Assembly (NCBI GenBank): GCA_018825365.1
Contig: JAHJEV010000003.1
Location: 387,669-451,668, forward strand
Length of the DNA: 64,000 nt
DNA from: Patescibacteria group bacterium
GTDB taxonomy: Bacteria > Patescibacteriota > WWE3 > UBA101185 > UBA10185
Reading direction: 5' to 3'
Shown piece after piece: positions 9,441 to 23,572 of the stretch (positions are counted from its first letter, which is position 1; each line of letters starts with the position of its first letter). The notes beneath the pieces were generated by a model. It was given only the letters and a program-made list of their open reading frames with translations, made no database searches and was not told where the DNA came from. The position numbers were made by a program, and so were the translations under genes.

Positions 9441-9597
9441 GCGTCATTGATACTTAAAGACAATAAATAACAACTAACATTGCATAATATATCCTAGAGA
9501 ATAAAATGAGACACTGAAACTACCCTTTTATACTGTCTCGCTTGTCTCATTTACATCCTGGAGAATAAGAAGGTTCTAAACCCGTATGCTCGGCCAA
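9441..9597 (+). repeat. Long island repeat copy 2 (~157 bp), ending in short-repeat copy f (9572..9597)
   Basis: ~90% identical to 4379..4537, with the same hairpin and promoter-like element. Lies upstream of ORF 9640. Confidence 0.7.
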
Positions 9598-9639
9598 TTA
9601 AAAATTAAGAAATGTAATTTTTTGTTGTATTATTAGAAT

Positions 9640-10134: not shown

Positions 10135-10137
10135 CTA

Positions 10138-10163
10138 GTTCTAGACCTATATACTCAGCCAAG
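10138..10163 (+). repeat. Short island repeat copy g (GTTCTAGACCTATATACTCAGCCAAG)
   Basis: Family member beginning 3 nt after the TAG of ORF 9640..10134. Last copy seen in the window. Confidence 0.7.
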
Positions 10164-10324
10164 AAAAACGAGAGGTATATTAAACTCTAGTCCTTACTTT
10201 TGGCGTTGACAAAAAGTTTCAAAAGTTGCATATTACTTTGTGCGAATTTTTACGAATTTCTCAAACGACCATAATGTCTTATCCTCTTCAGTAATAAATT
10301 CATCTAAACTAAGAAACAATTCCT

Positions 10325-10840
10325 TTGTTAAAAATACAACCGCCTAAGTATGAGTACTGCCCATTTTGTAAGACTAAATTATTAGCTAAAGTTGACGACG
10401 ACCGTTCAAGAAAATACTGCCCTTCTTGCGGTTGGATATACTATCCTCAGGTTTTTGACTCTGTAGCAGCAATAATAATAAAAAATAATAAAATGCTGTT
10501 AGTTGAAAGGGGTCGAGAACCATATAAAAACACGTGGATGTTTCCCGGCGGGTTTGTTGAATATGGAGAACATCCTGAAGAAACATTGAGACGGGAGGTG
10601 AAAGAAGAAACAGGTTTGAAAGCGGAAAAAATTTCCTTTTTCAAAATAGTTCAATCAGTGGATGATCCCAGAGCACCGGGAAATCTCATTTTTTTCTACC
10701 AAGTCAAACCATATGAAGGATCGATAAAAACTGACGAAAAAGAAAACGTTGCTGTGAATTGGTTTTCTTTAGACCGGTTACCAAAAATTGGATGGAAATC
10801 TCACAAATATATTATAAAGGCGTTAAAAAAAGACAAATGA
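10325..10840 (+). CDS. NUDIX hydrolase with N-terminal zinc ribbon
   Basis: Nudix box GGFVEYGEHPEETLRREVKEETG. N-terminal CPFC...CPSC ribbon. Confidence 0.8.
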   Translation: MLKIQPPKYEYCPFCKTKLLAKVDDDRSRKYCPSCGWIYYPQVFDSVAAIIIKNNKMLLVERGREPYKNTWMFPGGFVEYGEHPEETLRREVKEETGLKAEKISFFKIVQSVDDPRAPGNLIFFYQVKPYEGSIKTDEKENVAVNWFSLDRLPKIGWKSHKYIIKALKKDK

Positions 10841-12261
10841 AAAGGACAACCATGTTAAAAAAATATGATTGTATTATAGTGGGCGCAGGACCAGCAGGTA
10901 TTTTTGCTGCTTTAGAATTTGCGAAACACACCAAACTTAAGATTTTGTTACTAGAAAAAGGAAATGTTCTCGAAAAGCGAATGTGCCAAACAGCTAAAAA
11001 TGGTGGGGTCTGTGTCAATTGCAAGATCTGCGATAATACCAAGGGCTGGGGTGGCGGAGGTGCCCTTTCAGATGGAAAACTAAATGTGGCTACAACTACA
11101 ATTGGAGTTAGAATGCTGGACTATATGTCAAAACCGGATTTCACCCGCTTGGTTAAGGTTGCAGATGAGCTTTGGGTAAGGTTTGGAGCTCCGGAAAATC
11201 TTTTTGGAATTGATAATACTGAGATTAGAAAGATAAAAAAACTTTGTACTAAAGCAAAACTAGATTTTAAGGTTAGCCCGATAAGACATATAGGAACGGG
11301 CAGGAGTTTTGACGTTCTTAACAATATGTATGAGGCGTTAAAATCAAAAATAGAAATTAAGTTTAATTCAGAGGTTGAAGAGATACTTGTTGATGATAAT
11401 AAAACAGTAGGGGTAAAACTAAAAAACTCCAAAAAATATTTTGCTGATAATGTTATTGTTGCTCCAGGAAGAGAAGGCAGCACGTGGTTTGCAGATGAGT
11501 GCAAAAGACTTGAACTAGATAAAGTGGTACACCCAGTTGAATTGGGTGTCAGAGTAGAAGTTCCTTCTGAAGTAATGAAAAGACTTACCGATGTTTTGTA
11601 TGAAGCAAAAATCTCATATGAGGGAAAAACATTTAATGACTTTGTTAGAACATTTTGTATGTGTCCAAACGGTTTCGTGGCACGAGAGCGGGTTAATGTT
11701 GGTGGCTCCAGTATTATTAGCGCAAACGGGCACAGTTTCAGTGACCGAAAATCAGAAAACACAAACTTTGCAATTTTAGTAAGAAGTAATTTTACCGCCC
11801 CATTCAAAGAGCCTAACCTTTACGGGACTTATGTTACCGGGCTATCCAATTTAATTTCCAGCGGTGTCTTGGTTCAAAGGTTAGGTGACCTTTTGGCCGG
11901 AAGAAGATCTACCCCAGAAAGAATAAAGAAAGGTCTAGTTAAACCTACACTAACCGATGCCGATCCTGGAGATTTGGCCTTTGCTCTCCCCTACAGGCAC
12001 TTAGTGAATATCATGGAAATGCTAAGGGCGTTGGATAAAGTTACACCTGGGGTATTTTCTTTTGATACTCTACTTTATGGAACTGAAGTTAAATTCTTCT
12101 CTTCTGGACCTGTGTTCAAGAAATTTTTAGAAACACAAATAAATAACTTGTATGCTTGCGGTGATGGAGTGGGTGTCAGTTCTAATCTTGTACATGCCTC
12201 TGTTTCGGGATTGTTAGTTGCAGAATATATAGTTAATAAAATTAAAGAGAAAGGAAAATAA
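10837..12261 (+). CDS. FAD-dependent oxidoreductase (COG2509-like)
   Basis: IIVGAGPAGIFAA dinucleotide-binding motif. Start ATG overlaps the NUDIX stop (ATGA). Confidence 0.75.
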   Translation: MKRTTMLKKYDCIIVGAGPAGIFAALEFAKHTKLKILLLEKGNVLEKRMCQTAKNGGVCVNCKICDNTKGWGGGGALSDGKLNVATTTIGVRMLDYMSKPDFTRLVKVADELWVRFGAPENLFGIDNTEIRKIKKLCTKAKLDFKVSPIRHIGTGRSFDVLNNMYEALKSKIEIKFNSEVEEILVDDNKTVGVKLKNSKKYFADNVIVAPGREGSTWFADECKRLELDKVVHPVELGVRVEVPSEVMKRLTDVLYEAKISYEGKTFNDFVRTFCMCPNGFVARERVNVGGSSIISANGHSFSDRKSENTNFAILVRSNFTAPFKEPNLYGTYVTGLSNLISSGVLVQRLGDLLAGRRSTPERIKKGLVKPTLTDADPGDLAFALPYRHLVNIMEMLRALDKVTPGVFSFDTLLYGTEVKFFSSGPVFKKFLETQINNLYACGDGVGVSSNLVHASVSGLLVAEYIVNKIKEKGK

Positions 12262-12263
12262 CT

Positions 12264-13547
12264 ATGCCAGGAGTAGTTGTCTTAGGATCTCAATGGGGAG
12301 ATGAGGGTAAGGGAAGGCTTGTTGATTATTTGGCCAAAAAGGCTAGTTACGTTTGCAGGTTTAGCGGAGGAAATAATGCCGGTCACACAGTTGTGTACAA
12401 AGGAAAACAGTATCTTTTTACTATTCTTCCTTCAGGAGTTTTGTCAGAAAAAAAACTTGTCATAGCTGCCGGTGTATGCTTTGATCCGGAGGTTCTCATT
12501 TCAGAAATTGATATGGTAGAAAAGGCGGGAATAAAGGTAAAACTACTCATTGATCCGAGGGCTCATATTGTTATGCCCTATCACAGACAGCGTGATACGG
12601 CCAACGAGGCAAGAAGAGGTAAAACCGCAGTTGGTAGTGTGGGTTTTGGTGTTGGATATTGTTTTGTAGATAGAGCAAGAAGAGAAAATTTACGATTTGA
12701 GGACATCATTATACCAACTCTTGCCAAAAAGAAATTAGATTATTTTTTCCCCTCTAAAAAAGAGACGCTAGAAAAGATCTATGGTGTTACACCCTTACCT
12801 AAAGAAGAAATTTTAAAGAGGATTTTAAAATTTGGTAAAAAACTTAGACCTTACTTATGTGATGTTTCTTTAGAATTAGGTAAGGCGCTGGAAAAAGGCG
12901 AAACAGTATTATTTGAGGGAAGCCAGGGCGTTATGTTAGATGTTAATTTTGGAACGTACCCTTACGCTACAGGGTCCCATATTATTTCGGGCTATGTTTT
13001 TACTTCTGTTGGGTTACCGCCACAAAACCTAAAGGTCATTGGCGTTGTAAAATCCTTTAGCTCTAGAGCAGATACGGGTGCAGGTCCTCTACCAACAGAA
13101 ATATCAACGGCACGGGGGGCAGGAAAACATATTTTATATAAAGGTCATGAGTTTGAGGAGTTCCTAAATATTCCGGTAAGACCAAGAAGAATAGGCTGGC
13201 TGGATTTGCCAATGTTAAGGTATGCTCATCAATTGAATAAGTTTTCGGAGTTAGCTCTTACTCATGCTGATACTATGATGGGACTAAAGGAAATACTTGT
13301 CTGCACCCACTACGAAATAAAAAAGAAAAAGTATCTGTATCCACAGTTTCCGGGAATAACGGAAAATGTAAAACCGATATACAAAAGGTTTCCTGGTTGG
13401 CAATTTGAGGTTAGTAAAATTAAGAGGTATTCCGATTTGCCCGGGGAACTAAAATCCTACATTGAATTTATTGAAAAGGAGACCGACACCCCAATAAGAT
13501 ATATTTCCTTGGGTGCAGAACGGGAATCTCTAATCGAGAAAAGGTAA
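12264..13547 (+). CDS. purA: Adenylosuccinate synthetase
   Basis: N-terminal VVLGSQWGDEGKGRLVDYL...GGNNAGHTVV, diagnostic of AdSS. Confidence 0.9.
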   Translation: MPGVVVLGSQWGDEGKGRLVDYLAKKASYVCRFSGGNNAGHTVVYKGKQYLFTILPSGVLSEKKLVIAAGVCFDPEVLISEIDMVEKAGIKVKLLIDPRAHIVMPYHRQRDTANEARRGKTAVGSVGFGVGYCFVDRARRENLRFEDIIIPTLAKKKLDYFFPSKKETLEKIYGVTPLPKEEILKRILKFGKKLRPYLCDVSLELGKALEKGETVLFEGSQGVMLDVNFGTYPYATGSHIISGYVFTSVGLPPQNLKVIGVVKSFSSRADTGAGPLPTEISTARGAGKHILYKGHEFEEFLNIPVRPRRIGWLDLPMLRYAHQLNKFSELALTHADTMMGLKEILVCTHYEIKKKKYLYPQFPGITENVKPIYKRFPGWQFEVSKIKRYSDLPGELKSYIEFIEKETDTPIRYISLGAERESLIEKR

Positions 13548-13679
13548 TCAACAATAAATCTCAACTTCGGAGACATTCGTTATAGGACACCTGTGTTCCA
13601 GTCTTTTATTTTCATCCTGGAAAAGGAACCCCATATATAAATTCTAGCATTTGATATACTACAAACGTTAACAGCTGCT

Positions 13680-14651
13680 ATGTCAAATTTTTGGAAAAAA
13701 TTATCAAAACCATTTACCGCATTGGCCCCAATGGATGGGGTTACGGATTTTGTATTCAGAGAAATAGTTTGCGAAATTGCAAAGCCTGATGTTTTGTTTA
13801 CCGAATTTACCCCAACGGATGCGATTGTTTCAAAAGGCTACAACAGAGTTATCGGAAATCTTAAATACTCAGAAAAACAGCGTCTGATAGTTGCCCAGAT
13901 ATGGGGAATTCATCCTGAAAATTTTTATAAAACTGCAAAACTTTGCAAAAACTTAAAATTTGATGGAATAGACATAAACATGGGCTGCCCGGACAAGAAT
14001 GTTGTAAAAATTGGATCCGGAGCGGCGTTAATAAATAATAAAAAACTGGCGGAGGAAATTATTAAAGCTACTAAAAAGGGGGCAGGAAACATTCCGGTAA
14101 GTGTAAAAACAAGAATAGGGTTCGCCGAAGTAGTCACTGAGAATTGGATTTCTTTTTTACTTAAACAAGATATAGACGCAATATCAATTCACGGAAGAAC
14201 AGCAAAAGAAATGTCAAAAGGCCGGGCTGACTGGGATGAAATTGCTAAGACCGTAAAACTAAGAGACACTCTGTCTCCAAAAACCGTGATTATAGGAAAC
14301 GGAGATGTCTTAAGTTACAAAGAAGTGTTGGAGAAATCGGAAAAATACGGGGTCGATGGAGTAATGATAGGAAGAGGAATATTCTCTAATCCTTGGATAT
14401 TTGAAAAAACACAAAATCCCCTTTCTCATTCAACTGAAGAGCATCTTAGACTTCTCACAAAACATACAAAGCTATTTTGTGATACTTACCGTAATGAGAA
14501 AGACTTCAATACCATGAAAAAGTTTTTCAAGATTTATGTAAGATCATTCAGAGGGGCAGGAAAAATAAAGAAACAGTTAATGGAATGCAAGAATCACGAA
14601 GATGTTGAAAGAGTGGTTCTACCTTATCTCAGTAACCTCACCACGCCTTAA
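13680..14651 (+). CDS. dus: tRNA-dihydrouridine synthase
   Basis: ALAPMDGVTDFVFR...CPDKNVVK...GNGDV motifs of the Dus family. Confidence 0.85.
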   Translation: MSNFWKKLSKPFTALAPMDGVTDFVFREIVCEIAKPDVLFTEFTPTDAIVSKGYNRVIGNLKYSEKQRLIVAQIWGIHPENFYKTAKLCKNLKFDGIDINMGCPDKNVVKIGSGAALINNKKLAEEIIKATKKGAGNIPVSVKTRIGFAEVVTENWISFLLKQDIDAISIHGRTAKEMSKGRADWDEIAKTVKLRDTLSPKTVIIGNGDVLSYKEVLEKSEKYGVDGVMIGRGIFSNPWIFEKTQNPLSHSTEEHLRLLTKHTKLFCDTYRNEKDFNTMKKFFKIYVRSFRGAGKIKKQLMECKNHEDVERVVLPYLSNLTTP

Positions 14652-14813
14652 CCTGTAAATAATTATCAGGCGCCTACTAAACTTCAGAATTGGGTTTTTT
14701 AATCCAAACGGTACCGAAAATGACTGTGGAGATGATGATCTAAACGATTTATCACAGATTTATAACAAATAGAAAAATGGCTGTTGTCTTGCCTATTGTG
14801 ATATACTGGGTCA

Positions 14814-15515
14814 ATGAAAAAAACAAATATCAACATTAAAGCTATTTTTTCCAAAATTAAGACTTTCTTCGTGAGAATTAATCCTTTTAAAAAGAGTGGA
14901 AACACGTCTCTTACATCCATGAAAAATTACATCGTTAAAAACAAACTGCTTGTAGGAGGAATTGCAGCAGTAGCAGTCGCATTCCTAGGTGGCTACTACA
15001 TCAAAAGCCTTTTTATCGCTGCAACGGTAAACGGGTCTCCGATATCAAGAATGAAAATCATTAAGGAACTTGAAAAAAGAGGCGGTGCTTCAACCCTTGA
15101 AAGTATAGTTACCGAAAAACTAATAAAGCAGGAAGCTGCAAGAAGGCGTATTTCAGTAACTAATGAGGAAATCGACTCAGCAATCGCAAATATTGAAGTT
15201 AGCCTTAAAAGCCAGTCACAAGACTTAAAATCAGCACTTGCTTTACAGGGAATGACCTTAAACGATCTTAAAAATCAGATAACTTTACAAAAACTGGTCG
15301 AGAAACTACTGGCCGACAAAGTCACTGTGACGGACGAGGAAATAACGAAATACATCACCGACAATAAAATCTCGCTTCCCGAGGGAACAGATCAAGAAAA
15401 CACAAGGTCAATCATCAAACAGCAAATCACTCAGGAAAAATTGGGGCAGGAAATACAATCCCTGCTAGATGACTTGAAAAAGGCTGCGAAAATTAACATA
15501 TTTGTCAAGTACTAA
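14814..15515 (+). CDS. Membrane-anchored SurA-N-terminal-domain chaperone-like protein (no PPIase domain)
   Basis: TM helix followed by a SurA_N-like helical domain. Start may be at the internal Met at 14919. Confidence 0.5.
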   Translation: MKKTNINIKAIFSKIKTFFVRINPFKKSGNTSLTSMKNYIVKNKLLVGGIAAVAVAFLGGYYIKSLFIAATVNGSPISRMKIIKELEKRGGASTLESIVTEKLIKQEAARRRISVTNEEIDSAIANIEVSLKSQSQDLKSALALQGMTLNDLKNQITLQKLVEKLLADKVTVTDEEITKYITDNKISLPEGTDQENTRSIIKQQITQEKLGQEIQSLLDDLKKAAKINIFVKY

Positions 15516-15550
15516 TCGTAAAAGTCATCAAAATCTAATATACTTTAACT

Positions 15551-16117
15551 ATGCTGCTCAAATTCACAAGATCTATAGATGAGATGCTACCTCTTTTGAT
15601 GAATGGAAAGGAAGTCAAAAGTAAGGATCCCGTCTATTGGGTCTTCTCCAATGTTTCAAAAAAATGGGAGCACGCAACCCTCATCTGTCCGGGAGACTTT
15701 GGAGGAGAGTTTCCTAAAACATTCGGACACTACCACACCACAGACTCAATTGAAAAATACAAGGTTTTATATGGGCAGGGAATCATAATTATGCAAAAAA
15801 GAAAGTTCATAGATGATGATTGGGTACCAGACCAAATCGAAAAAGTCTATTTTGTTGAGTTTCTCTCGGGAGATGAAATAAATATACCGCCGGAATGGGG
15901 CCATTCCTGTTCAAATATAGGTGCGGAGCCTTTATTGTTACTTGACGATTGGAAGGGAGAAGAGGATTACGAACCGATTAAGAAGTTGGGCGGTCTAGCT
16001 TACTTTTTGGTAAACAAAGATGGTAAAGCGGAATTTGTTCCTAACAAGAACTACAAAGATCTTCCAAAACCGGAGTGGATAACGGCCTCTGATTTTAATA
16101 AACTATCGTGTGAGTAA
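15551..16117 (+). CDS. Cupin-type glucose-6-phosphate isomerase (cPGI)-like protein
   Basis: Matches both cPGI signature motifs: TLICPGDFGGEFPKTFGHYH...EKY (TX3PX3GXEX3TXGHXH..EXY) and PPEWGHSCSN (PPX3HX3N). Confidence 0.55.
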   Translation: MLLKFTRSIDEMLPLLMNGKEVKSKDPVYWVFSNVSKKWEHATLICPGDFGGEFPKTFGHYHTTDSIEKYKVLYGQGIIIMQKRKFIDDDWVPDQIEKVYFVEFLSGDEINIPPEWGHSCSNIGAEPLLLLDDWKGEEDYEPIKKLGGLAYFLVNKDGKAEFVPNKNYKDLPKPEWITASDFNKLSCE

Positions 16118-16165
16118 GCTTTTCCAGGATTTGATTTGTAACTTTTGGTATAATGAATAGACTTT

Positions 16166-16864
16166 ATGTCAAAAATCGAAGAAAACAAAACCTCGCTCCC
16201 CAACCACATATCCATAATAATGGACGGTAACAGAAGATGGGCCAAAAAGCGCGGTCTTCCTGGAGCTGAGGGGCATAGACAGGGTTCTATTGCTTTTGAA
16301 TCTTTAATGGATTACGCACAAAAAATAGGTTTAAAGTGTTTATCCGCTTGGGCATTCTCCACAGAAAACTGGAAAAGGTCAAAAGAAGAAATAGATTATC
16401 TATTCTCGTTAGTAAGAAAGAAGATGGAAAAGTGGAAAAAGAAATTCATTAAGGAAAAGATCCATTTCCACCATATTGGAAGAAAAGACAGGCTTCCAGA
16501 AGATATTAGAAAGGTTTTGGAGGAAACGGAGGAGGCAACAAAGGATTTTGACGGTTTCATTGTTGCATTGGCCGTTGATTACGGCGGACACGATGAACTT
16601 ACAAGAACCATTAAAAAACTTGTTGATGAAAAGATCGAAATTACACCGGAAAACATCGAAAATAATTTAGATACAGCGGGGCTTCCTAAAATTGATCTAA
16701 TAATAAGAACTGGCGGGGAAAAAAGACTGAGTGGGTATATGCCTTGGCAAAGTGAGTGTGCAGAACTTTACTTCTCAGACACATATTTCCCAGATTTTAA
16801 ACCAAAACATCTGGATGAGGCGATAAAAGACTTCAACTCTAGGGAAAGAAGATTTGGAAAATAG
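16166..16864 (+). CDS. uppS: Isoprenyl transferase / undecaprenyl-diphosphate synthase
   Basis: HISIIMDGNRRWAKKRG and ...RTGGEKRLSGY motifs. Confidence 0.9.
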   Translation: MSKIEENKTSLPNHISIIMDGNRRWAKKRGLPGAEGHRQGSIAFESLMDYAQKIGLKCLSAWAFSTENWKRSKEEIDYLFSLVRKKMEKWKKKFIKEKIHFHHIGRKDRLPEDIRKVLEETEEATKDFDGFIVALAVDYGGHDELTRTIKKLVDEKIEITPENIENNLDTAGLPKIDLIIRTGGEKRLSGYMPWQSECAELYFSDTYFPDFKPKHLDEAIKDFNSRERRFGK

Positions 16865-17020
16865 TTAAAACATCCTAAAACTCAGCTTATACGGTGCATT
16901 TTCTTCTTGGTTCTTTTTATTTTCTTATTCATTTGTCGGCTGTTTCTCTTTTTGTTTCTTGGCATATCGTAGATATTCTGCCATAAATACCAAATTAATC
17001 AAGGCTTCTTGTGATAAAAT

Positions 17021-17662
17021 TTGTTCGTGAGAGTCGTTACCGGAAACAAAATTGAAGAGATAAATAAGCAAAAATTCCAAGAAATGACTGGTGGTTACTC
17101 CCGTGTTGAAATTGATTTGGGTACCGGAGATGGAAGGTTTGTTTATAAAAATGCCCTCTTAAGAAAAGACACCCTTTTTATTGGGGTTGACCCGGCGGAA
17201 AAACAATTGGAAATTTATTCAAAAAAAGCTGCAAAAGAAAAGGTTCAAAATTTAATTTATGTAGTATCTTCCTTTGAGATGCTACCAAGCGAGCTTAGAG
17301 AAACTGCGGATAAAATATACGTGAGCTTTCCATGGGGTACCTTGCTCGAAAACATTGTTAAACCAACAAAGGGTGGCTTAGATAAACTTCTGGAGTTATT
17401 AAAAGAAAAAGGAGAACTAGAAATAATTTTGGGGTACGCGCAGGAACTTGAACCGTCAGAAACAAAAAGATTAAACCTTCCCCCAATTCACTTAGGTTTA
17501 ATAAACGATATTATAGTTCCGGCTTTTGAGGACAGATCCTTTCATGCAAAAGAATTTTACGAAATGAGCAAAGAACAGCTTGGGGGTGTAGAAACCACAT
17601 GGGCAAAAAAGCTTAGATTTGGCAGGGACAGGAAAATCTACAAACTAGTATTCTCCAAGTAA
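17021..17662 (+). CDS. KamB/NpmA-family 16S rRNA (adenine1408-N1)-methyltransferase homolog
   Basis: Motifs VEIDLGTGDGRFVYK, FIGVDP, SFPWGTLLE and C-terminal TWAKKLRFGRDRK, matching my recollection of NpmA/KamB. TTG start with an extended -10 (TGaTAAAAT) immediately upstream. Confidence 0.5.
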   Translation: MFVRVVTGNKIEEINKQKFQEMTGGYSRVEIDLGTGDGRFVYKNALLRKDTLFIGVDPAEKQLEIYSKKAAKEKVQNLIYVVSSFEMLPSELRETADKIYVSFPWGTLLENIVKPTKGGLDKLLELLKEKGELEIILGYAQELEPSETKRLNLPPIHLGLINDIIVPAFEDRSFHAKEFYEMSKEQLGGVETTWAKKLRFGRDRKIYKLVFSK

Positions 17663-17668
17663 CTCCCA

Positions 17669-17866
17669 TTACCTTATTAATAATAAAAATATCGCAACTG
17701 CAACAACACCTATGATTAGTATTTTAATTATTGGTTTCTTCCAACTTAATTTCACCGGGGATGTTTCTTTCGGAGCCTCTACTATTGGTTCTTCAGCAAC
17801 TGGTGTAGCAACCGGAGCTTCCGGAACTTGCGGCATCGGAACGTTTTTTTCTTCCAATTTAATCAC
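17669..17866 (-). CDS. Small Pro/Glu-rich membrane-anchored protein
   Basis: AGGAGG SD, then GTG/TTG start. C-terminal TM helix IIKILIIGVVAVAIFLLLI. Confidence 0.35.
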   Translation of the reverse strand: MIKLEEKNVPMPQVPEAPVATPVAEEPIVEAPKETSPVKLSWKKPIIKILIIGVVAVAIFLLLIR

Positions 17867-17959
17867 CTCCTATTTAATGCTATCACTTTTGAAAATCCAT
17901 TACTATTAATGTATCATCTCAGTACTATAAGAAAATATATCGCATAGAAGGAGGCGAAA

Positions 17960-18316
17960 ATGACCCACAAGTTTTTGATTTCAATCGATACCTGTCAAGG
18001 ACTCCGGTATGATCAACTCACAACTTACCTTTATGAAAACGGGTTAGTAAAGAACTTGGTACAGGGAAATGTGTCCCAAGATGGATCGGAGGGAACGGTT
18101 TATGCCTATGTAAGTAACAAACAGAGATTTCTGGCTTACTTAAACAGACGGAAATTAAACCGAACCGCCGATGACCCAAGGGAGATGATCAGAAGTTTCC
18201 ACTACGAAGGGAGAATATATGTTCGCCCTCCGGATGACGAAGAGATAAAGACTAGTCAAAATCTGAAAAGAATGAGGAAACGAACCAACGTATCTGGGAA
18301 TGGTGTAAAATTCTAA
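17960..18316 (+). CDS. Hypothetical protein
   Basis: 118-aa ORF preceded by gaaggaggcgaaaATG. Confidence 0.45.
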   Translation: MTHKFLISIDTCQGLRYDQLTTYLYENGLVKNLVQGNVSQDGSEGTVYAYVSNKQRFLAYLNRRKLNRTADDPREMIRSFHYEGRIYVRPPDDEEIKTSQNLKRMRKRTNVSGNGVKF

Positions 18317-18416
18317 CAACCTACCTACAACAACCACTTTTGGATAACAGAGGTGGCTGTTCTTTTTCTCTAAACATCTAAAGGGTGATAAAATACAAAA
18401 GTACAAAGGCATTTAT

Positions 18417-18492
18417 CGGGGTGTGGCGCAGTTGGTAGCGCGCACGTATGGGGTGCGTGAGGTCGCAGGTTCGAGCCCTGTCACCCCGACCA
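18417..18492 (+). tRNA. tRNA-Pro (anticodon GGG)
   Basis: Manually folded. Acceptor CGGGGTG/CACCCCG, D-stem GCGC/GCGC, anticodon loop ATGGGGT, T-loop TTCGAGC, encoded CCA. Confidence 0.8.
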
Positions 18493-18538
18493 AAGATTCT
18501 TGGGGAGTTTTAACTATTAGTGTTATTGATTTATTATC

Positions 18539-19375
18539 TTACTTAATCCCGAGTGCCGCGTTGATCACAGGCTCCATAGCATCGTAACCGTACGCCCCGG
18601 CAAAGTTTGTGGTATTTATATAAAATCCCGGCGTCCCATTCACCCCTACACTAGAAGCTAAGCCCATATCCGCAGTCAACTGGCTATCATACTTTCCGCT
18701 ATCGAGACAAGATTTCATGTTACTTGCGTTAATTACGGAGCCTAAAAAGTCAGCCAATACACCGGACTGAGTCTTATCATTTTTCACAGTATTATTCATC
18801 AGATTATATCCGGTATTGCTCATAATAAGATCATTCACCTCCCAAAATTTTCGCATTTCAAATGCGCAGTACAAGGCTTTCATCCCCATTTCCCCACTCC
18901 CATGCCCTGGGAAATAAATTAACGCAAACGATGCTTTACCCTGATCGACTAGTTTTCTTATTTCTGGAACCGGGGCTAGATATGTTCCACCATCCTCTAC
19001 CAACTTAAACTGACCTGTGTTAAGTTCTTTATTCTTTCCCCCGGCAATCTGGCAATAAGGACAGCTAGGATCTGATACTTCAAGGATAACCAACTTTCCG
19101 TTAGCATCTCCAAACTTTATCGCAGCTTTATTAATGGCATCTTTTATCTGGGCGAGTTCTATTTTTGGTTGTTGCGGTTGTTGATTTGCGCCAGTAGTAG
19201 TTTCGGTACCTTGCGCACTCTTGCCGACGTTTTTTTCCAACATTTGTACCTTGGTCAAAAGCGACCCTATTACAAAAGCTGCAACAACAAGCACTATAAC
19301 TAAAGCTATTTGAACAATTTGATTATTTAAGATTGAAGATATCTTTTTACTTGAGCTGTGTTTTTCCATAAGCAC
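18539..19375 (-). CDS. DsbA-family thiol:disulfide oxidoreductase with N-terminal TM anchor
   Basis: CPYC active-site motif in a thioredoxin-like domain. Confidence 0.7.
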   Translation of the reverse strand: MLMEKHSSSKKISSILNNQIVQIALVIVLVVAAFVIGSLLTKVQMLEKNVGKSAQGTETTTGANQQPQQPKIELAQIKDAINKAAIKFGDANGKLVILEVSDPSCPYCQIAGGKNKELNTGQFKLVEDGGTYLAPVPEIRKLVDQGKASFALIYFPGHGSGEMGMKALYCAFEMRKFWEVNDLIMSNTGYNLMNNTVKNDKTQSGVLADFLGSVINASNMKSCLDSGKYDSQLTADMGLASSVGVNGTPGFYINTTNFAGAYGYDAMEPVINAALGIK

Positions 19376-19445
19376 TCCTTAAATTTGTTATTGCGAAATG
19401 ATATCCTTATTTTCTGCGAGTCGCAACTTTTAAATCTTGAAAAAA

Positions 19446-20414
19446 TTATTCTATGACTTCTCTGACCATGTAGGTTTTTCTTCCGGATGACTCAAAGTAT
19501 GTTCTTATCATAAGCTCCCCCAGCATACCCAACATCATCGATTGAACTCCAACTATTATAAGTAAAACCGAGAGAGTTAAAAGGGGTCTGTTTCCAATAC
19601 TGTGACCAAGCAACTTTAAAACCAAAAGATATATCCCAGCCAACCCACCAACTCCAGAAATCATCGCCCCGGTAAATCCGAAAAGTCTTCCCGGCATAGC
19701 TTTAAACGGCTTTCTTGCGTAATAAAGCAGGAAAAAAAGGGTCATAATATCAAGCATTACTTTAAATGTTCTTTTGTGGTCTTTATAATAAGAAACCCCG
19801 AAATCCCTGTCTTTAAAATCAACATCAAATTCAGTCATTTTCGCACCGAACACACTCACATAATCAGGTATGAACCTATGCATTTCTCCATATAATCTTA
19901 GGTTTTTAACAATTTCTCTTCTGAAACCCTTCATTCCGGAACCTCTGTCTTTCATGTGAACTCCGGAAATTTTTCCGATAATAAAATTGGCGAGGCCGCT
20001 TTGTTTTGCTCTTCCGCTTTTTCCCGCACTCCATCTTTGAGCTCTATTTGTGTTTACAAAATCGTATCCTTCATCCAAAAGGTCGATTATTTTATTTATA
20101 TTTTCAAGCGGGGTCTCCAAATCTGCAGATACTGTGATTACATAATCTCCGGCGGCTATATCAAAACCTGCCGCATAGGCGCAGCTCTGACCAAAATTAG
20201 TCATTAGGTTTACTCCTCTTACCTCGAGGTGGGTGTTTGCATATTTCCTAATGACCTTCCAAGTACCATCTTTACTGCCGTCGTCCACCACAATAATTTC
20301 AAACACATACCTGTGGTTTTGGATAAGCTTAAATAATTCATCTAAGGTTCTATTAATATTTTCTTCCTCGTTGTAACAAGGAATTATTATCGATACAAGT
20401 CTATTTTTTTCCAT
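19446..20414 (-). CDS. GT2 family glycosyltransferase (polyprenyl-phosphate sugar transferase-like) with C-terminal TM helices
   Basis: SIIIPCYNEE...VVDDGSKD...DADL motifs of GT-A family 2. Confidence 0.8.
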   Translation of the reverse strand: MEKNRLVSIIIPCYNEEENINRTLDELFKLIQNHRYVFEIIVVDDGSKDGTWKVIRKYANTHLEVRGVNLMTNFGQSCAYAAGFDIAAGDYVITVSADLETPLENINKIIDLLDEGYDFVNTNRAQRWSAGKSGRAKQSGLANFIIGKISGVHMKDRGSGMKGFRREIVKNLRLYGEMHRFIPDYVSVFGAKMTEFDVDFKDRDFGVSYYKDHKRTFKVMLDIMTLFFLLYYARKPFKAMPGRLFGFTGAMISGVGGLAGIYLLVLKLLGHSIGNRPLLTLSVLLIIVGVQSMMLGMLGELMIRTYFESSGRKTYMVREVIE

Positions 20415-21346
20415 ATTTTTTCCTTAAACCAATCGACCTCTTTCTTAAGGCCATCTTGAGGCTTCGTAGTTGGATTATACCCCAAAATCTCCCTTGCTTT
20501 TTCGATAGTTGCCCGTGTCTCCAGCTGATCGCCCTGTCTTGGCGGCTTAATATCGTATATGGCCTTTTTACCCAAATAATCCTCAATTATTTTAATTCCC
20601 TCGCCTGTTGTAATTGCGCTATCAAGTCCAAGGTTAAATATCTCACCTATACACTTATTAATATTATTAAGAATCGAGACATAACCATCAATCATATCTC
20701 CTATGTATGTATAACTCCTCAAGTGCTTTTCACTTCCTTCATAAAATGGGAAAGGAACATCATTTAGAATTGAGTTGATAACTTTCGGATAGAGTTTATC
20801 CGGTCTTTCCCTCTCACCATATACAGAAAACGGTCTTACTGAGCACACTGGAAATTTTTTATCCCTTTGATAAGCAAGTATAAGCTGCTCTGCAGCGAGT
20901 TTTGTAACACCGTAGTAAGAGGTTGGTTTGGGAGGGGTATTTTCATCATCCATAGCGTGTACCCCATAAACCGAAGATGTGGATGTGTTTACGAAAATTC
21001 TAAGATCCGGAATATTCTTTAAAGCCTGATACAAATTTTCTGTTGCGTTAATATTGTTTTTAATAAAACTATCAAGAGGAACATCCGCTGATATTCCGGG
21101 CTGTGCAGCAAAATGAAAAACCGCCCCAACACCTTCCAGCACGTCATCTATCTTATCTGTTACTAAATCAAGTTCGTGAACTCTTATTCTCTGTTTTTCA
21201 AGATCTAAAGCGTTAAGCTTTTTCAAATCTACGCAGTAATAAGGACTAAAATTATCAATTCCAACGACTTCGTGTCCAAGTGAGTGTAACCTTTCGGAAA
21301 GATGGAAACCTATAAATCCTGCTGCACCAGTTACAAGTATCTTCAT
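20387..21346 (-). CDS. NAD-dependent epimerase/dehydratase (SDR)
   Basis: MKILVTGAAGFIGFHL Rossmann motif and YGVTKLAAE catalytic YxxxK. Confidence 0.8.
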   Translation of the reverse strand: MKILVTGAAGFIGFHLSERLHSLGHEVVGIDNFSPYYCVDLKKLNALDLEKQRIRVHELDLVTDKIDDVLEGVGAVFHFAAQPGISADVPLDSFIKNNINATENLYQALKNIPDLRIFVNTSTSSVYGVHAMDDENTPPKPTSYYGVTKLAAEQLILAYQRDKKFPVCSVRPFSVYGERERPDKLYPKVINSILNDVPFPFYEGSEKHLRSYTYIGDMIDGYVSILNNINKCIGEIFNLGLDSAITTGEGIKIIEDYLGKKAIYDIKPPRQGDQLETRATIEKAREILGYNPTTKPQDGLKKEVDWFKEKIWKKIDLYR

Positions 21347-21474
21347 ATCTATTTATTTTAACAGAATTTACATCACGTTTTTGTCACTCCATACCGAAAA
21401 AAATCAAGAGAGAAAAAAGTAAACCCCCTTCTATTTCTAAAAGAGGGTTTTTGGCGTGGAGACCAACTTGTTAA

Positions 21475-21750
21475 CTATTTGGTATCGAGGCCGTTTTTTC
21501 TTATAAACAACTTTTCTTTTCCTTTCAAGTCAATAACCCCAAACAGTAGGGCAATAATGATGGTGGTAAACAGACACAGTACAATGAAGAAAAGTATACC
21601 GCCAACAAGAACTGCAATGCTGTCGTTGTAAGAAACTCGGCTAAGAGCGGTTAAGACAATTGCTGCTCCAAAACACCACACAATTGTTGATAAAAGAAAG
21701 CTTGCCACGAGTTTTCCTTTATCGATTTTGGGATTTAAAGTCCATCTCAT
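21475..21750 (-). CDS. Small membrane protein
   Basis: 91-aa ORF with two hydrophobic helices. Confidence 0.3.
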   Translation of the reverse strand: MRWTLNPKIDKGKLVASFLLSTIVWCFGAAIVLTALSRVSYNDSIAVLVGGILFFIVLCLFTTIIIALLFGVIDLKGKEKLFIRKNGLDTK

Positions 21751-21852
21751 AACTCTCTCCTTTTTGAATGGTCCAACTTCGAATATCAGTGTGATTATCG
21801 CCTAAAAAGCTAAAATAATCAACCATAGCCTCTTAATGTGTAATACCTTGAC

Positions 21853-22236
21853 TCAGGACTTTTTCTGTGGAAGTACTTGACAAGATTTACTAATATTAGG
21901 CTCCCCACCATATTCAGGATAATCAAGGTTCTCTAAAGATTTTTTCCCATTAAACCAATTCAAAATATTTGAAATGGTAACACCGATTTTCAAACCTGTG
22001 AAAGAACCGGGCCCTAGATTCGGAATAAATTCAGAAACATCCCCGACCTTTATTTTTTCCTTTTTCAAAAAATCCCGAATCGTCCCAACAATATCGATAT
22101 TTCCACTCTTTTTCTGCAAAACTTTCTCTTCACCATCAGTTACCTTGGTTAACCTCACCTCTTTTTCATCTCTTTTGGAGGAGTCTATATAAATTTTATA
22201 TTCTGATTTTTCTGCTGTTTTCATCGACATATTCAA
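21853..22236 (-). CDS. tsaB: Truncated TsaB-like t6A biosynthesis protein (N-terminal domain only)
   Basis: NLGPGSFTGLKIGV motif. 127 aa versus ~220 aa typical. Immediately downstream of tsaE. Confidence 0.55.
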   Translation of the reverse strand: MNMSMKTAEKSEYKIYIDSSKRDEKEVRLTKVTDGEEKVLQKKSGNIDIVGTIRDFLKKEKIKVGDVSEFIPNLGPGSFTGLKIGVTISNILNWFNGKKSLENLDYPEYGGEPNISKSCQVLPQKKS

Positions 22237-22594
22237 AATAAATTCTAATTGTATTTTCAGGTAATAGATTCTCTGCTAACTCCGGCCACTCAATTATCAT
22301 GATAGAATTTTCATCTTCAATCATCTCCTTTATGCCCAGGTCCCCAACCTCTTTTTCCGAAATTATTCTATACAAGTCAATGTGATTTACATGCCCGTAT
22401 TTCCTGGCGATTACAAACGTTGGACTCTGAACCCTATTTTTTAAACCTAAACTCTCAACCAAATATCTCGTAAAGGTAGTTTTACCACTACCCAAATCAC
22501 CATATAAAGCTAGTGTGTCCCCCAATTTTGTCTTTTCTGCTATTTCAGAAGCAAGTTTTTTAGTTTCTTCGGTAGAGTGGGTAATAATTTCCAT
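22196..22594 (-). CDS. tsaE: tRNA threonylcarbamoyladenosine biosynthesis ATPase TsaE
   Basis: GDLGSGKTTFTR Walker A and SPTFVIARKY motifs. Confidence 0.8.
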   Translation of the reverse strand: MEIITHSTEETKKLASEIAEKTKLGDTLALYGDLGSGKTTFTRYLVESLGLKNRVQSPTFVIARKYGHVNHIDLYRIISEKEVGDLGIKEMIEDENSIMIIEWPELAENLLPENTIRIYFEYVDENSRKIRI

Positions 22595-22911
22595 AAAAGT
22601 ATTCCCGAAATAATTGCACCAAGAGTATCTACACCAAGATCAAAAATGCTGCAAGATCTACCGAGTATTGTTAACTGATGTAGCTCATCGAAAACCGCAT
22701 AAGATACCGTCATAACAATGGAAAGAGGTATGTCTTTCGTTGCTTTAAAAAAAGCAATGCAAAGAATTATGAAAAGTATAAAGTGACCTGATATCTCCGA
22801 GGGCTCATTCCCAACTATTGATCTGTTTACCGCCTCTCCATTAATCGAGGAGAGAGCGTAGATGAGAAGCATTACAAATATTGCAGGTATCCAGTTTCTT
22901 AAAATCTTCAC
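22540..22911 (-). CDS. VanZ-family membrane protein
   Basis: YAVFDELHQLTILGRSCSIFDLGVDTLG, characteristic of VanZ-like proteins. Confidence 0.55.
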   Translation of the reverse strand: MKILRNWIPAIFVMLLIYALSSINGEAVNRSIVGNEPSEISGHFILFIILCIAFFKATKDIPLSIVMTVSYAVFDELHQLTILGRSCSIFDLGVDTLGAIISGILLWKLLPTLPKKLKNLLLK

Positions 22912-23572
22912 TTATTGATTGTATCATTTCCTTTTTATTCTTAGGCTTTTGAGATAAGAAGCCAAAAATAGCAGCCGCAAGAAATAAACCAATACTAAAA
23001 TATAAGTAGAGTTTCTTTGGAATATTTTCTATAAATCCCAGGTATGAGCTTTTGTAGCTTTGTGATGTTTCCATAACTTCAAAAACCTCGTTATTCTTTT
23101 CTTTTGTTGTATCTTCATAGTTTGAAAGGCTATAATTTATTTCCTCCACGTATCCATCATAGATTTTTTCGCCCCAAATATTTTTCTTGGGCGTAAAATA
23201 AGTTTTTCCATCTCTCAAACTTTCTATTTCAAACCAAAGATAAGTTTTATTAACATTTAAATTTTGGAGTCTAATAAGCATGTTCTCAGATATTTTCGGC
23301 AAATAATCCGTAGAAGAGAAACTTCCCGCCCACTCCTTATTCTCAGGATTAAATATCTCTACAGTTCCGTTTCCTGTCAAAGGCTTGACCACAAAATCTT
23401 TATTTTCATAACCAGAAAAAAGATAGGAAAAGTAAACTTCAGTTTCGGTGTTTTCTGGAACTAAATATTCCTTTAAAGAGAAGTCGAAATTAGTAAACAA
23501 AGCATAAGAGACACTAACTAAATAAAATAGGACAACAAAAAAGATAAATGTTTTAAAAAATATTGTTCTCAC
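22841..23572 (-). CDS. Hypothetical protein with N-terminal TM anchor
   Basis: 243-aa ORF, hydrophobic N-terminus. Confidence 0.4.
   Translation of the reverse strand: MRTIFFKTFIFFVVLFYLVSVSYALFTNFDFSLKEYLVPENTETEVYFSYLFSGYENKDFVVKPLTGNGTVEIFNPENKEWAGSFSSTDYLPKISENMLIRLQNLNVNKTYLWFEIESLRDGKTYFTPKKNIWGEKIYDGYVEEINYSLSNYEDTTKEKNNEVFEVMETSQSYKSSYLGFIENIPKKLYLYFSIGLFLAAAIFGFLSQKPKNKKEMIQSISEDFKKLDTCNICNASHLRSLLD

What the first reader, a model, noticed from the sequence alone, without database searches (positions are those of the whole stretch)
17021..17662. Homolog of aminoglycoside-resistance 16S rRNA m1A1408 methyltransferases (KamB/NpmA family)
Motifs VEIDLGTGDGRFVYK, FIGVDP, SFPWGTLLE and C-terminal WAKKLRFGRDRK closely parallel what I recall of NpmA/KamB. 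It may be a housekeeping rRNA methyltransferase, or confer intrinsic pan-aminoglycoside resistance. It appears to start at TTG with an extended -10 immediately upstream (leaderless).
Basis: partly seen in the sequence, partly recalled or inferred. Interest (0 to 1): 0.55.

Follow-up and report, generated by a model that had tools for sequence, protein, structure and literature searches.

The report
CPR-lineage NpmA/Kam-type rRNA methyltransferase gene
This gene encodes a clear member of the enzyme family that methylates one adenine (A1408) of the small ribosomal RNA and thereby blocks aminoglycoside antibiotics. Here it is a long-resident chromosomal gene of an uncultured ultra-small (CPR/WWE3-like) bacterium rather than a mobile resistance gene, so it is a well-supported but largely ordinary new member of a known family.

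Summary
The ORF is real and the family assignment is correct.
- **Family match.** Pfam NpmA (PF24675) scores 177 bits against a cut-off of 60. The best solved relatives are 7JLZ ([quoted passage not shown], E 6e-60) and NpmA (E 5e-38). TrmB scores only E 6e-3.
- **Structure.** An AlphaFold model (pLDDT 92) superposes on NpmA at TM 0.91.
- **Residues.** Nearly all functionally defined NpmA residues are conserved: D30, D55, E84, F101, W103, E142, W192 and R202.
The start is almost certainly GTG 17027 (211 aa), not TTG 17021. The right Pfam family is PF24675, not PF07091.
- **Leaderless idea holds.** TGaTAAAAT (17012-17020) ends exactly 6 nt before the GTG. In 50 CPR orthologue loci, 31 share this geometry and only 2 have a Shine-Dalgarno-like motif.
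- **Not mobile.** The gene is native in base composition (GC 0.374), under purifying selection (omega 0.18) and syntenic (SurA_N-GPI-UppS-NpmA-like). It was present next to UppS in 8 of 8 relatives sampled without regard to it, and has no plasmid or phage relatives.
- **Untested.** Activity and resistance were not tested here. A 2026 preprint found no MIC change for a WWE3 homologue in E. coli.
- **Verdict.** New member of a known kind, moderate-to-low interest.

The parts
17027..17662 (+). Coding sequence (GTG start, 211 aa plus stop) of a Kam/NpmA-family SAM-dependent 16S rRNA (adenine1408-N1) methyltransferase homologue
   Evidence: ORF. Pfam NpmA 177 bits. PDB 7JLZ E 5.7e-60 and NpmA E 5e-38. 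Start position from homologue N-termini. AF2 model pLDDT 92.1 with TM 0.91 to NpmA 3MTE.
17021..17026 (+). In-frame TTG-TTC upstream of the real start.
   Evidence: Read from the sequence. The TTG is not kept in frame in orthologues such as L003, L004 and L008. Gene calls of identical and 98% identical proteins start at the GTG/ATG two codons later.
17012..17020 (+). Extended -10 promoter element TGaTAAAAT. It ends 6 nt before GTG 17027, which predicts a leaderless mRNA whose first base is the G of the start codon
   Evidence: Sequence. Ungapped alignment with TGaTATTAT / TATCAT boxes of orthologues. TANNNT ends exactly 6 nt before the start codon in 31 of 50 CPR loci and 5-8 nt before it in 40 of 50; an SD-like 4-mer is present in only 2 of 50. 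The simple sigma-70 scan, which demands a -35 hexamer, did not list it.
16882..16965 (-). Neighbouring, divergently oriented conserved mini-ORF of 27 aa, very basic (MPRNKKRNSRQMNKKIKRTKKKMHRIS). Function unknown; it shares the compact promoter region with the methyltransferase gene
   Evidence: Frame-specific conservation across the orthologous intergenic regions, seen in 14 loci and also in L162. No Pfam, NCBIfam, PDB or Rfam match.
16973..17002 (-). Putative promoter of the mini-ORF: -35 TTGATT (17002-16997), 18-nt spacer, -10 GAATAT (16978-16973), then 7 nt to ATG 16965
   Evidence: Read from the sequence. The -35 and -10 blocks include columns that are invariant across 14 sequences (the window plus 13 loci) whose flanking proteins are only about 50-60% identical. 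Inference only; no transcript data.

Best explanation
Window 17027-17662 encodes a 211-aa class I SAM-dependent methyltransferase of the Kam/NpmA family. It belongs to a clade that is specific to Patescibacteria (CPR) and is best represented in candidate division WWE3.

Inferred mechanism, by homology to the NpmA-30S complex:
- The enzyme acts on the assembled 30S subunit and docks through its basic beta2/3 linker (K66, K67, K70, K72).
- It flips A1408 out of helix 44 into a channel between W103 and W192, with F101 also contacting the base.
- R202, supported by E142, holds the flipped nucleotide's phosphate.
- The methyl group of SAM is transferred to N1 of A1408. SAM is bound by D30, G32-T33-G34, D55-P56, E84, T105-L106 and T190.

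m1A1408 sterically blocks kanamycin-, neomycin- and apramycin-type aminoglycosides, so the organism's ribosomes would be intrinsically refractory to them.

The gene is not a mobile acquisition. It is a vertically inherited backbone gene of the lineage, usually downstream of SurA_N-like, GPI and UppS genes. It is apparently expressed from an extended -10 promoter as a leaderless mRNA starting at the GTG.

Shown here: family membership, fold, residue conservation, synteny, purifying selection and promoter geometry. Inferred: the actual methylation of A1408, constitutive expression and the resistance phenotype.
For: - **Sequence and profile.** Pfam NpmA 177 bits against a gathering score of 60, near full length. 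The NCBIfam NpmA, NpmB, KamB and WarA models are the top four hits. The PDB hits are 7JLZ 5.7e-60, NpmA 5e-38, NpmB1 1e-28, Kmr 8e-25, CacKam 5e-19 and KamB 6.5e-17.
- **Fold.** The AF2 model has pLDDT 92.1 and pTM 0.89, with the N-terminal beta-hairpin (strands 2-5 and 8-11). Its only low-confidence stretch is 181-200, the beta6/7 linker known to be mobile. The top 19 Foldseek PDB hits are all Kam-family chains, with TM 0.91 to NpmA 3MTE.
- **Residues.** In the first alignment (29 sequences including NpmA and 7JLZ), D30, G32, T33, G34, G36, P102, W103, W192 and R202 are invariant, and D55, E84 and E142 are at least 90% conserved. The second alignment (73 sequences) agrees for all of these. 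They map to NpmA D30, D55, E88, P106/W107, E146, W197 and R207, whose roles are described in PMC4705659 and PMC12340973.
- **Native, selected gene.** GC is 0.374 and GC3 0.34, against 0.384+-0.023 and 0.353+-0.032 for other genes of the window. Omega is 0.18 against the 90%-identical orthologue. The gene is single-copy in the window.
- **Synteny.** SurA_N-GPI-UppS-NpmA-like order is conserved in many loci with only 43-52% NpmA-like identity. A PF24675 gene lay 0.15-4.7 kb downstream of UppS in 8 of 8 UppS orthologues chosen without regard to it.
- **Clade.** 55 CPR sequences separate cleanly from 21 non-CPR sequences, including NpmA, in an NJ tree.
- **Mobility.** No relatives were found in 72,556 plasmid or 50,697 phage records.
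- **Promoter and leaderless geometry.**
Against: - No activity data exist for this protein.
- A 2026 bioRxiv preprint (10.64898/2026.07.13.738296) expressed a codon-optimised WWE3 npmA-like gene from pET-22b in E. coli BL21(DE3). It saw no change in amikacin, kanamycin, tobramycin or gentamicin MIC. The sections I read report no check of protein expression or solubility, nor of rRNA methylation. Apramycin and neomycin were not tested, and the accession labels of the two constructs are swapped in the text. I therefore treat this negative result as weak.
- NpmA R153, a direct 16S contact, aligns with L149 here, although the adjacent R148 is invariant in the CPR clade. NpmA N38, a SAM methionine contact, is F38 here.
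- The host's own 16S rRNA is not in the window or in any fetched locus, so the presence of A1408 in its helix 44 could not be read.
- CPR bacteria are thought to be fermentative, with poor aminoglycoside uptake. This weakens drug resistance as the selective reason.
Confidence: 0.75

Rival explanations
1. Same chemistry, different purpose. The enzyme makes m1A1408, or modifies a nearby helix 44 base, as a constitutive housekeeping modification that tunes the reduced CPR ribosome. Aminoglycoside insensitivity would then be a by-product, not the selected function.
For: - The gene is lineage-wide, syntenic and under purifying selection.
- It has a simple constitutive-looking promoter and no regulator nearby.
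- RNA-modification neighbours occur nearby: Dus upstream in L001 and TruB divergently adjacent in L165, L168 and L169.
- CPR ribosomes are unusual: they lack uL30, and WWE3 lacks bL9 (PMC9297842).
- CPR bacteria may take up aminoglycosides poorly.
Against: - In the literature read here, m1A1408 is described only as a resistance modification; I know of no bacterium in which it is a housekeeping mark.
- Expression of Kam/NpmA enzymes is reported to interfere with endogenous decoding-centre methylation and to affect host fitness (titles and abstracts of PMC3923132 and PMC12406665).
- The data here cannot tell this reading apart from intrinsic resistance.
Confidence: 0.35
2. Retargeted or non-rRNA methyltransferase. 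The CPR clade keeps the Kam fold but acts on a different substrate, such as another RNA, DNA within a restriction-modification context, or a small molecule. This is what the 2026 preprint suggests for CPR 'resistance-like' methyltransferases.
For: - No MIC change was seen for a WWE3 homologue in E. coli.
- The equivalent of NpmA R153 is not conserved, and N38 is replaced by F38.
- The CPR clade is separate from all characterised enzymes.
Against: - Every residue known to handle the flipped A1408 (two Trp, R207, E146) and the basic docking linker is conserved, most of them invariant across the clade. That pattern is hard to explain for another substrate.
- No restriction enzyme or DNA-methylase partner lies in the neighbourhood.
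- The depositors titled the CPR-clade structure 7JLZ a '30S ribosomal A1408 methyltransferase'.
Confidence: 0.12
3. Recently acquired mobile aminoglycoside-resistance gene, the clinical NpmA scenario.
For: The family includes mobile members such as npmA and npmA2 on ICE/Tn elements (PMC12271512). A tRNA-Pro gene lies 0.75 kb downstream, and tRNA genes are common integration sites.
Against: - GC and GC3 are native.
- Synteny is conserved down to about 45% protein identity.
- The CPR clade is monophyletic in the NJ tree.
- There are no plasmid or phage relatives.
- No integrase or transposase lies within about 8 kb upstream or 6 kb downstream.
- Identity to NpmA is only about 34-38%.
Confidence: 0.03
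4. A TrmB-type tRNA (m7G46) methyltransferase or generic class I methyltransferase mis-read as Kam-like.
For: There are weak hits to Methyltransf_4/TrmB over residues 30-104 only: Pfam 31.7 bits and TIGR00091 31 bits.
Against: TIGR00091's cut-off is 112.65. The PDB TrmB hit has E 6e-3 against 6e-60 for the Kam family. TM to TrmB is 0.67 against 0.91 to NpmA. The match covers only the shared SAM-binding half.
Confidence: 0.01

Closest known systems
UncKam, PDB 7JLZ ('30S ribosomal A1408 methyltransferase from an uncultured bacterium', released 2021)
   Same: It belongs to the same CPR-specific clade and has the same length class (about 211 aa). It is the best PDB sequence hit (E 5.7e-60, about 45% identity). 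It has the same motifs: DLGTGDGR, PWG-LL and TW-KKL-FG--R. Its sequence is 100% identical to a gene in a CPR MAG (L018) and 76% identical to a WWE3 genome gene (L028).
   Different: It is only about 45% identical to the window protein and comes from a different sub-lineage. I found no publication describing its activity in the searchable library.
NpmA (E. coli ARS3 / Clostridioides; PDB 3MTE, 3P2E, 4OX9), the acquired pan-aminoglycoside-resistance m1A1408 methyltransferase
   Same: Same fold (TM 0.91, rmsd 2.3 A over 215 columns). The residues D30, D55, E88, F105, W107, E146, W197 and R207 and most of the basic beta2/3 linker are conserved.
   Different: - Identity is about 34%.
- NpmA has a 4-residue insertion in the beta2/3 linker (KPSKGG).
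- R153 aligns with L149, and N38 with F38.
- NpmA is carried on mobile elements and groups with Bacillota homologues, whereas this gene is a chromosomal lineage gene.
- It scores far below the NCBIfam NpmA allele-level cut-off: 127 bits against 470.
KamB / Kmr / CacKam / NpmB1 / WarA (producer-type and other Kam-family enzymes)
   Same: Same family model and fold, with PDB E-values from 1e-28 to 6.5e-17 and TM 0.74-0.88. The SAM pocket and the two Trp residues are conserved.
   Different: Identity is 23-32%. Those enzymes come from Actinobacteria, Myxobacteria or clinical isolates and have demonstrated resistance phenotypes. This protein scores below their NCBIfam cut-offs: NpmB 100 against 460, KamB 80 against 350 and WarA 79 against 305.
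WWE3 'npmA-like' gene tested in bioRxiv 10.64898/2026.07.13.738296
   Same: It is a CPR (WWE3) Kam-family homologue annotated 16S rRNA (adenine(1408)-N(1))-methyltransferase, and belongs to the same group of genes as the one in this window.
   Different: It gave no MIC change in E. coli, and the authors interpreted this as a non-resistance role.

Membership tests
Kam/NpmA family, 16S rRNA (adenine1408-N1)-methyltransferase (Pfam PF24675) | Full-length significant match to the family profile | tested here: met
   177.1 bits against a gathering score of 60, E 3.8e-52, residues 4-209 matched to model positions 1-210 of 214.
Kam/NpmA family | Class I SAM-methyltransferase core extended by an N-terminal beta-hairpin and by beta5/6 and beta6/7 linkers | tested here: met
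   The AF2 model (pLDDT 92.1) has strands 2-5 and 8-11 before the core and a flexible 181-200 segment. TM is 0.91 to NpmA, 0.88 to KamB and 0.80 to 7JLZ, and the top 19 PDB hits are all from the family. This rests on a predicted structure, not a solved one.
Kam/NpmA family | SAM-binding residues: GxGxG motif and the two universally conserved Asp (NpmA D30, D55), plus E88 | tested here: met
   G32-T33-G34-D35-G36, D30, D55 and E84 are present. D30 and the Gly residues are invariant, and D55 and E84 are at least 90% conserved, in a 29-sequence and a 73-sequence alignment. Roles are from PMC4705659.
Kam/NpmA family | Two universally conserved Trp lining the A1408 channel (NpmA W107 and W197) | tested here: met
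   W103 and W192 are invariant in both alignments. PMC12340973 states that these Trp are universally conserved in the family.
Kam/NpmA family | beta6/7-linker Arg that holds the flipped A1408 phosphate (NpmA R207) and its supporting Glu (E146) | tested here: met
   R202 is invariant and E142 is at least 90% conserved. Roles are from PMC4705659.
Kam/NpmA family | Positively charged beta2/3 linker that docks on the 16S tertiary surface (NpmA K66, K67, K70, K71) | tested here: met
   K66, K67 and K70 are retained. K71 is replaced by E71, with K72 next to it. The consensus of the clade is YSKKAxRKK.
Kam/NpmA family | beta5/6-linker Arg contacting 16S rRNA (NpmA R153) | tested here: inconclusive
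   It aligns with L149. The adjacent R148 is invariant in the CPR clade. This linker is poorly conserved across the family.
Kam/NpmA family | Catalyses N1 methylation of A1408 in intact 30S subunits | not testable with these tools
   This needs an in vitro methylation assay or an RT-stop assay.
Kam/NpmA family | Confers high-level kanamycin, apramycin and neomycin resistance when expressed | not testable with these tools
   The only related datum is a preprint reporting no MIC change for a WWE3 homologue in E. coli. The sections I read report no expression control.
Named AMR alleles NpmA / NpmB / KamB / WarA (NCBIfam NF000030, NF040634, NF000363, NF051863) | Score at or above the curated cut-off of the allele or equivalog model | tested here: not met
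   126.9 against 470, 100.3 against 460, 80.3 against 350 and 79.4 against 305. The protein is a family member but not any of these named determinants.
TrmB, tRNA (guanine46-N7) methyltransferase (PF02390 / TIGR00091) | Full-length match above the equivalog cut-off | tested here: not met
   TIGR00091 scores 31 bits against 112.65. The Pfam match covers only residues 30-104. PDB TrmB gives E 6e-3 and TM 0.67.
   PF07091 is not among the Pfam hits at E up to 1. That PF07091 is the G1405 family is from my own knowledge.

The most novel reading that the evidence does not exclude
In candidate division WWE3 and related CPR bacteria, a Kam/NpmA-type enzyme is a core, vertically inherited gene that is constitutively expressed from a leaderless transcript. 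On this reading, a whole deep bacterial lineage carries m1A1408, otherwise known only as an acquired or producer self-resistance mark, as a standing feature of its ribosomes. The lineage would be an ancient environmental reservoir of this pan-aminoglycoside resistance mechanism. The gene may also be functionally linked to the conserved 27-aa basic peptide encoded divergently next to it.
Probability: 0.4. Interest if true: 0.6.

Novelty: new member of a known kind. Interest (0 to 1): 0.3.

Why it matters
m1A1408 methyltransferases defeat almost all clinically used aminoglycosides, including apramycin. Knowing where the family lives in nature therefore matters for tracing the origin of resistance genes. 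This window shows that an uncultured CPR lineage carries such a gene as a stable chromosomal trait, not as cargo. That raises a biological question that could be answered: are the ribosomes of these ultra-small episymbionts constitutively A1408-methylated, and if so, why? It could be protection from antibiotic-producing neighbours or hosts, or tuning of a reduced ribosome. The family, its CPR members and even a crystal structure of a CPR member are already on record, so the gene is not a discovery in itself. The added value is the evidence on synteny, presence across relatives and promoter geometry, plus the corrected start codon.

Tried and rejected
- **UppS scan of metagenome contigs.** I scanned metagenome contigs with a UppS alignment to sample the lineage without regard to NpmA. 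Only one lineage locus (L082) was recovered, and it did carry the gene. I replaced this with 8 UppS-anchored look-ups.
- **Host A1408.** I looked for a 16S rRNA gene so that A1408 could be read. None is in the window, and no 1392-1406 motif occurs in 1.65 Mb of fetched loci.
- **The 27-aa basic mini-ORF.** No hit in NCBIfam, Pfam or PDB with a single sequence or a profile, and none in Rfam for the region. A resemblance to tiny basic ribosomal proteins such as bS22 is only a recollection and is not claimed.
- **Literature on 7JLZ/UncKam.** Nothing relevant was found. The Witek & Conn 2014 family-expansion paper and the Dunkle 2014 NpmA-30S paper are not held.
- **Sigma-70 and terminator scan.** It did not flag the extended -10, because it requires a -35 hexamer, and it found no terminator after the gene.
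- **Plasmid and phage searches.** No match.
- **Recent-HGT and TrmB readings.** Both rejected on the evidence given under rival explanations.
Full report
**Observation.** The + strand carries an ORF from TTG 17021 to the stop at 17660-17662 (213 aa). The window has a uniform GC of about 37% and no rRNA gene, and it carries five tRNA genes. About 13.6 kb of it (9522-23089) is 99.4% identical to a JGI metagenome contig, L001, Ga0180009_10004993.

**What the protein is.** Pfam gives PF24675 'NpmA, 16S rRNA (adenine(1408)-N(1))-methyltransferase' at 177 bits against a gathering score of 60, covering almost the whole protein and model. Generic SAM-methyltransferase domains and TrmB's Methyltransf_4 match only residues 30-136 at 18-32 bits.

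The four best NCBIfam models are NpmA, NpmB, KamB and WarA. All score far below their allele-level cut-offs: 127 against 470, 100 against 460, 80 against 350 and 79 against 305. TrmB's TIGR00091 scores 31 bits against 112.65.

Against PDB sequences the order is as follows:
- 7JLZ, E 5.7e-60
- NpmA (3MTE, 3P2E, 4OX9), E about 5e-38
- NpmB1 (7EHF), E 1e-28
- Kmr, E 8e-25
- CacKam, E 5e-19
- KamB, E 6.5e-17
- TrmB, only E 6e-3

An AlphaFold2 model built on 73 homologues has pLDDT 92.1 and pTM 0.89. It shows the N-terminal beta-hairpin. Its only weak stretch is residues 181-200, which is the beta6/7 linker known to be mobile or disordered in free Kam enzymes. Foldseek against the PDB returns Kam-family chains only in the top 19. 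TM is 0.91 to NpmA 3MTE and 0.88 to KamB, and TrmB follows at 0.67.

**Functional residues.** I number from GTG 17027. The alignment with NpmA has no gaps up to residue 72. NpmA residues map as follows:

| NpmA | This protein | Note |
|---|---|---|
| D30 | D30 | |
| T33-G34 | T33-G34 | |
| D55-P56 | D55-P56 | |
| E88 | E84 | |
| F105-P106-W107 | F101-P102-W103 | |
| T109-L110 | T105-L106 | |
| E146 | E142 | |
| S195 | T190 | |
| W197 | W192 | |
| R207 | R202 | |
| K66, K67, K70 | K66, K67, K70 | basic beta2/3 linker retained |
| K71 | E71 | K72 lies next to it |
| R153 | L149 | R148 is adjacent and invariant in the clade |
| N38 | F38 | |

D30, G32, T33, G34, G36, P102, W103, W192 and R202 are invariant in both the 29- and the 73-sequence alignments. 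The roles of these residues come from PMC4705659 and PMC12340973. They cover SAM binding, stacking of the flipped A1408 between the two universally conserved Trp, and the phosphate clamp by R207 supported by E146. This pattern is what an enzyme still handling a flipped A1408 would keep.

**Start codon and expression signals.** All close and distant homologues begin M-[R/K/I/L]-x-[V/I]-x-G at the position of GTG 17027. The identical JGI gene call is 211 aa and starts 'VRVVTG'.

Immediately upstream lies TGaTAAAAT (17012-17020), an extended -10 box. Exactly 6 nt separate it from the GTG, so with standard promoter geometry the G of the start codon is position +1.

Comparative data make this more than a pattern match. 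In 50 CPR orthologue loci a TANNNT hexamer ends exactly 6 nt before the start codon in 31, and 5-8 nt before it in 40. Sixteen of those 40 have the TG extension, and only 2 of the 50 have a Shine-Dalgarno-like 4-mer. Among non-CPR homologues, 5 of 7 have one.

The TTG would sit in the untranscribed -6 to -1 spacer. The same geometry appears at 15 of 59 long ORFs in the window, against 9 with SD-like motifs. It therefore looks like a habit of this genome rather than a peculiarity of this gene. No intrinsic terminator was detected after the gene.

**Genomic and evolutionary context.** The closest relatives are almost all Patescibacteria (CPR) MAGs, many labelled candidate division WWE3. At least 487 species-representative genomes encode a relative.

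Within the CPR set the order SurA_N-like, cupin-type GPI, UppS, NpmA-like recurs even where the methyltransferases are only 43-52% identical. UppS and GPI are about 60% identical in the same pairs.

To ask whether the gene is accessory, I took eight UppS orthologues (56-65% identity) on long contigs. None of their contigs had shown up among the top 120 methyltransferase hits, and I looked at what lay beside them. All eight had a PF24675 gene 0.15-4.7 kb downstream. Sometimes other genes were inserted between them, and three times TruB was divergently adjacent.

Other evidence points the same way:
- Gene GC (0.374) and GC3 (0.34) match the window's other genes.
- Nei-Gojobori omega against the 90%-identical orthologue is 0.18.
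- A neighbour-joining tree separates all 55 CPR sequences from all 21 non-CPR sequences by one branch. NpmA sits next to Bacillota homologues at 42-46% identity.
- No relative exists in the plasmid or phage collections.
- No mobile-element genes lie nearby.

The gene is therefore a long-resident, selected chromosomal gene of the lineage, not recent cargo.

**What is already known.** PDB 7JLZ is titled 'Crystal structure of 30S ribosomal A1408 methyltransferase from an uncultured bacterium (UncKam)'. Its sequence is 100% identical to a gene in a CPR MAG (L018) and 76% identical to one in a WWE3 genome (L028). It is about 45% identical to the window protein. I found no paper on it in the searchable library.

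JGI already annotates many clade members as 16S rRNA (adenine(1408)-N(1))-methyltransferase. Maatouk et al. 2021 (PMC8651080) catalogued abundant rRNA-methyltransferase-type 'resistance-like' genes in CPR genomes.

A July 2026 preprint (10.64898/2026.07.13.738296) expressed a WWE3 npmA-like gene in E. coli BL21(DE3) and saw no MIC change for amikacin, kanamycin, tobramycin or gentamicin. The authors argued for non-resistance roles. In the sections I read there is no check of expression or solubility and no methylation assay. Apramycin and neomycin were not tested, and the construct labels are swapped. I therefore treat the result as a caution rather than a refutation.

**Mechanism and rivals.** The best-supported reading (about 0.75) is an active m1A1408 methyltransferase acting on assembled 30S subunits exactly as NpmA does. 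It would give the organism's ribosomes intrinsic insensitivity to kanamycin-, neomycin- and apramycin-type drugs.

Why the lineage keeps it is open. One possibility is protection from aminoglycoside producers in its habitat or among its hosts. The other is a housekeeping role on a reduced ribosome. The two are not mutually exclusive, and I give the housekeeping reading about 0.35.

A retargeted enzyme with another substrate (about 0.12) is disfavoured by the invariant A1408-handling residues. Recent horizontal acquisition (0.03) and a TrmB-like identity (0.01) are effectively excluded.

**Side observation.** The 162-nt spacer between uppS and the methyltransferase gene is far better conserved than the flanking proteins. 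It contains a 27-aa, lysine- and arginine-rich ORF on the minus strand (16882-16965; consensus MPRRKKRNLKQMNKKIKRTKKKMHRVS). The conservation is frame-specific across at least 15 loci. The ORF has its own conserved -35/-10 pair ending 7 nt before its ATG. It has no match in Pfam, NCBIfam, PDB or Rfam. Its function is unknown.

**Verdict.** This is a new, uncharacterised member of a known family, in a clade that already has annotated members and a solved structure. Interest is moderate to low (0.3). It would rise if native CPR ribosomes were shown to carry m1A1408 constitutively.

Noticed in passing
window 16882-16965 (- strand): A conserved 27-aa, extremely basic mini-ORF (MPRNKKRNSRQMNKKIKRTKKKMHRIS) lies between uppS and the methyltransferase gene and is transcribed divergently. 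Its frame-specific conservation was seen in at least 15 CPR loci. It has no match in Pfam, NCBIfam, PDB or Rfam and is too short for most gene callers. It could be an unannotated small ribosome- or RNA-associated protein; this is speculation.
   Followed up: partly
window 16966-17026: This is a compact divergent promoter region. The mini-ORF has TTGATT-18 nt-GAATAT-7 nt-ATG on the minus strand, and the methyltransferase has TGaTAAAAT-6 nt-GTG on the plus strand. Several columns in these blocks are invariant across the 14 aligned sequences (the window plus 13 loci) although the flanking proteins are only 50-60% identical.
   Followed up: partly
whole window (59 ORFs of 120 aa or more): A -10-like hexamer lies 5-8 nt before the first start codon at 15 of 59 long ORFs, for example at 14814, 15551, 8317 and 9640. 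SD-like motifs occur at only 9 of 59. This suggests that leaderless initiation is common in this genome. The estimate is crude because start codons were not curated.
   Followed up: partly
L165 7295-8128, L168 9259-10014, L169 10577-11380: In several WWE3 relatives the tRNA pseudouridine synthase gene truB sits immediately upstream of the NpmA-like gene and divergent from it. In the window lineage a Dus (dihydrouridine synthase) gene lies about 2.4 kb upstream (window 13680-14651). RNA-modification genes thus recur as neighbours.
   Followed up: no
L018 1517-2146; L028 8004-8633: The protein crystallised as PDB 7JLZ ('UncKam', uncultured bacterium) is 100% identical to a gene in a CPR MAG (CAZEAL010000168.1) and 76% identical to one in WWE3 bacterium RIFCSPHIGHO2_02_FULL_38_14. 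The solved structure therefore represents this CPR clade.
   Followed up: yes
L057-L081: Kam-family homologues at 32-40% identity also occur in many soil Acidobacteriota (Pyrinomonadaceae), Chloroflexota, Actinomycetota and Bacillota genomes. NpmA itself is closest to Bacillota genes (L061 46%, L059 Anaerobacterium chartisolvens 44%), which fits a Gram-positive origin for npmA.
   Followed up: partly
window 18417-18492: tRNA-Pro(GGG) lies 0.75 kb downstream of the gene. It is 95-96% identical to tRNA genes found in the same neighbourhood in distant relatives (L015, L024, L030), so it is part of the conserved backbone rather than an integration scar.
   Followed up: partly
window 17669-17866 (-) and 17960-18316 (+): Two small ORFs without family assignment lie just downstream: a 65-aa ORF with a hydrophobic C-terminal stretch and a 118-aa ORF. 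The 65-aa ORF is conserved in L002 (83%) and L050 (55%), and a 64-aa gene occupies the same position in L162 and L163.
   Followed up: no
bioRxiv 10.64898/2026.07.13.738296, Methods: The accession strings of the two tested CPR genes ('npmA' and 'grm') appear to be swapped between the WWE3 and Parcubacteria assemblies. This makes it unclear which construct is which in the reported negative MIC results.
   Followed up: no
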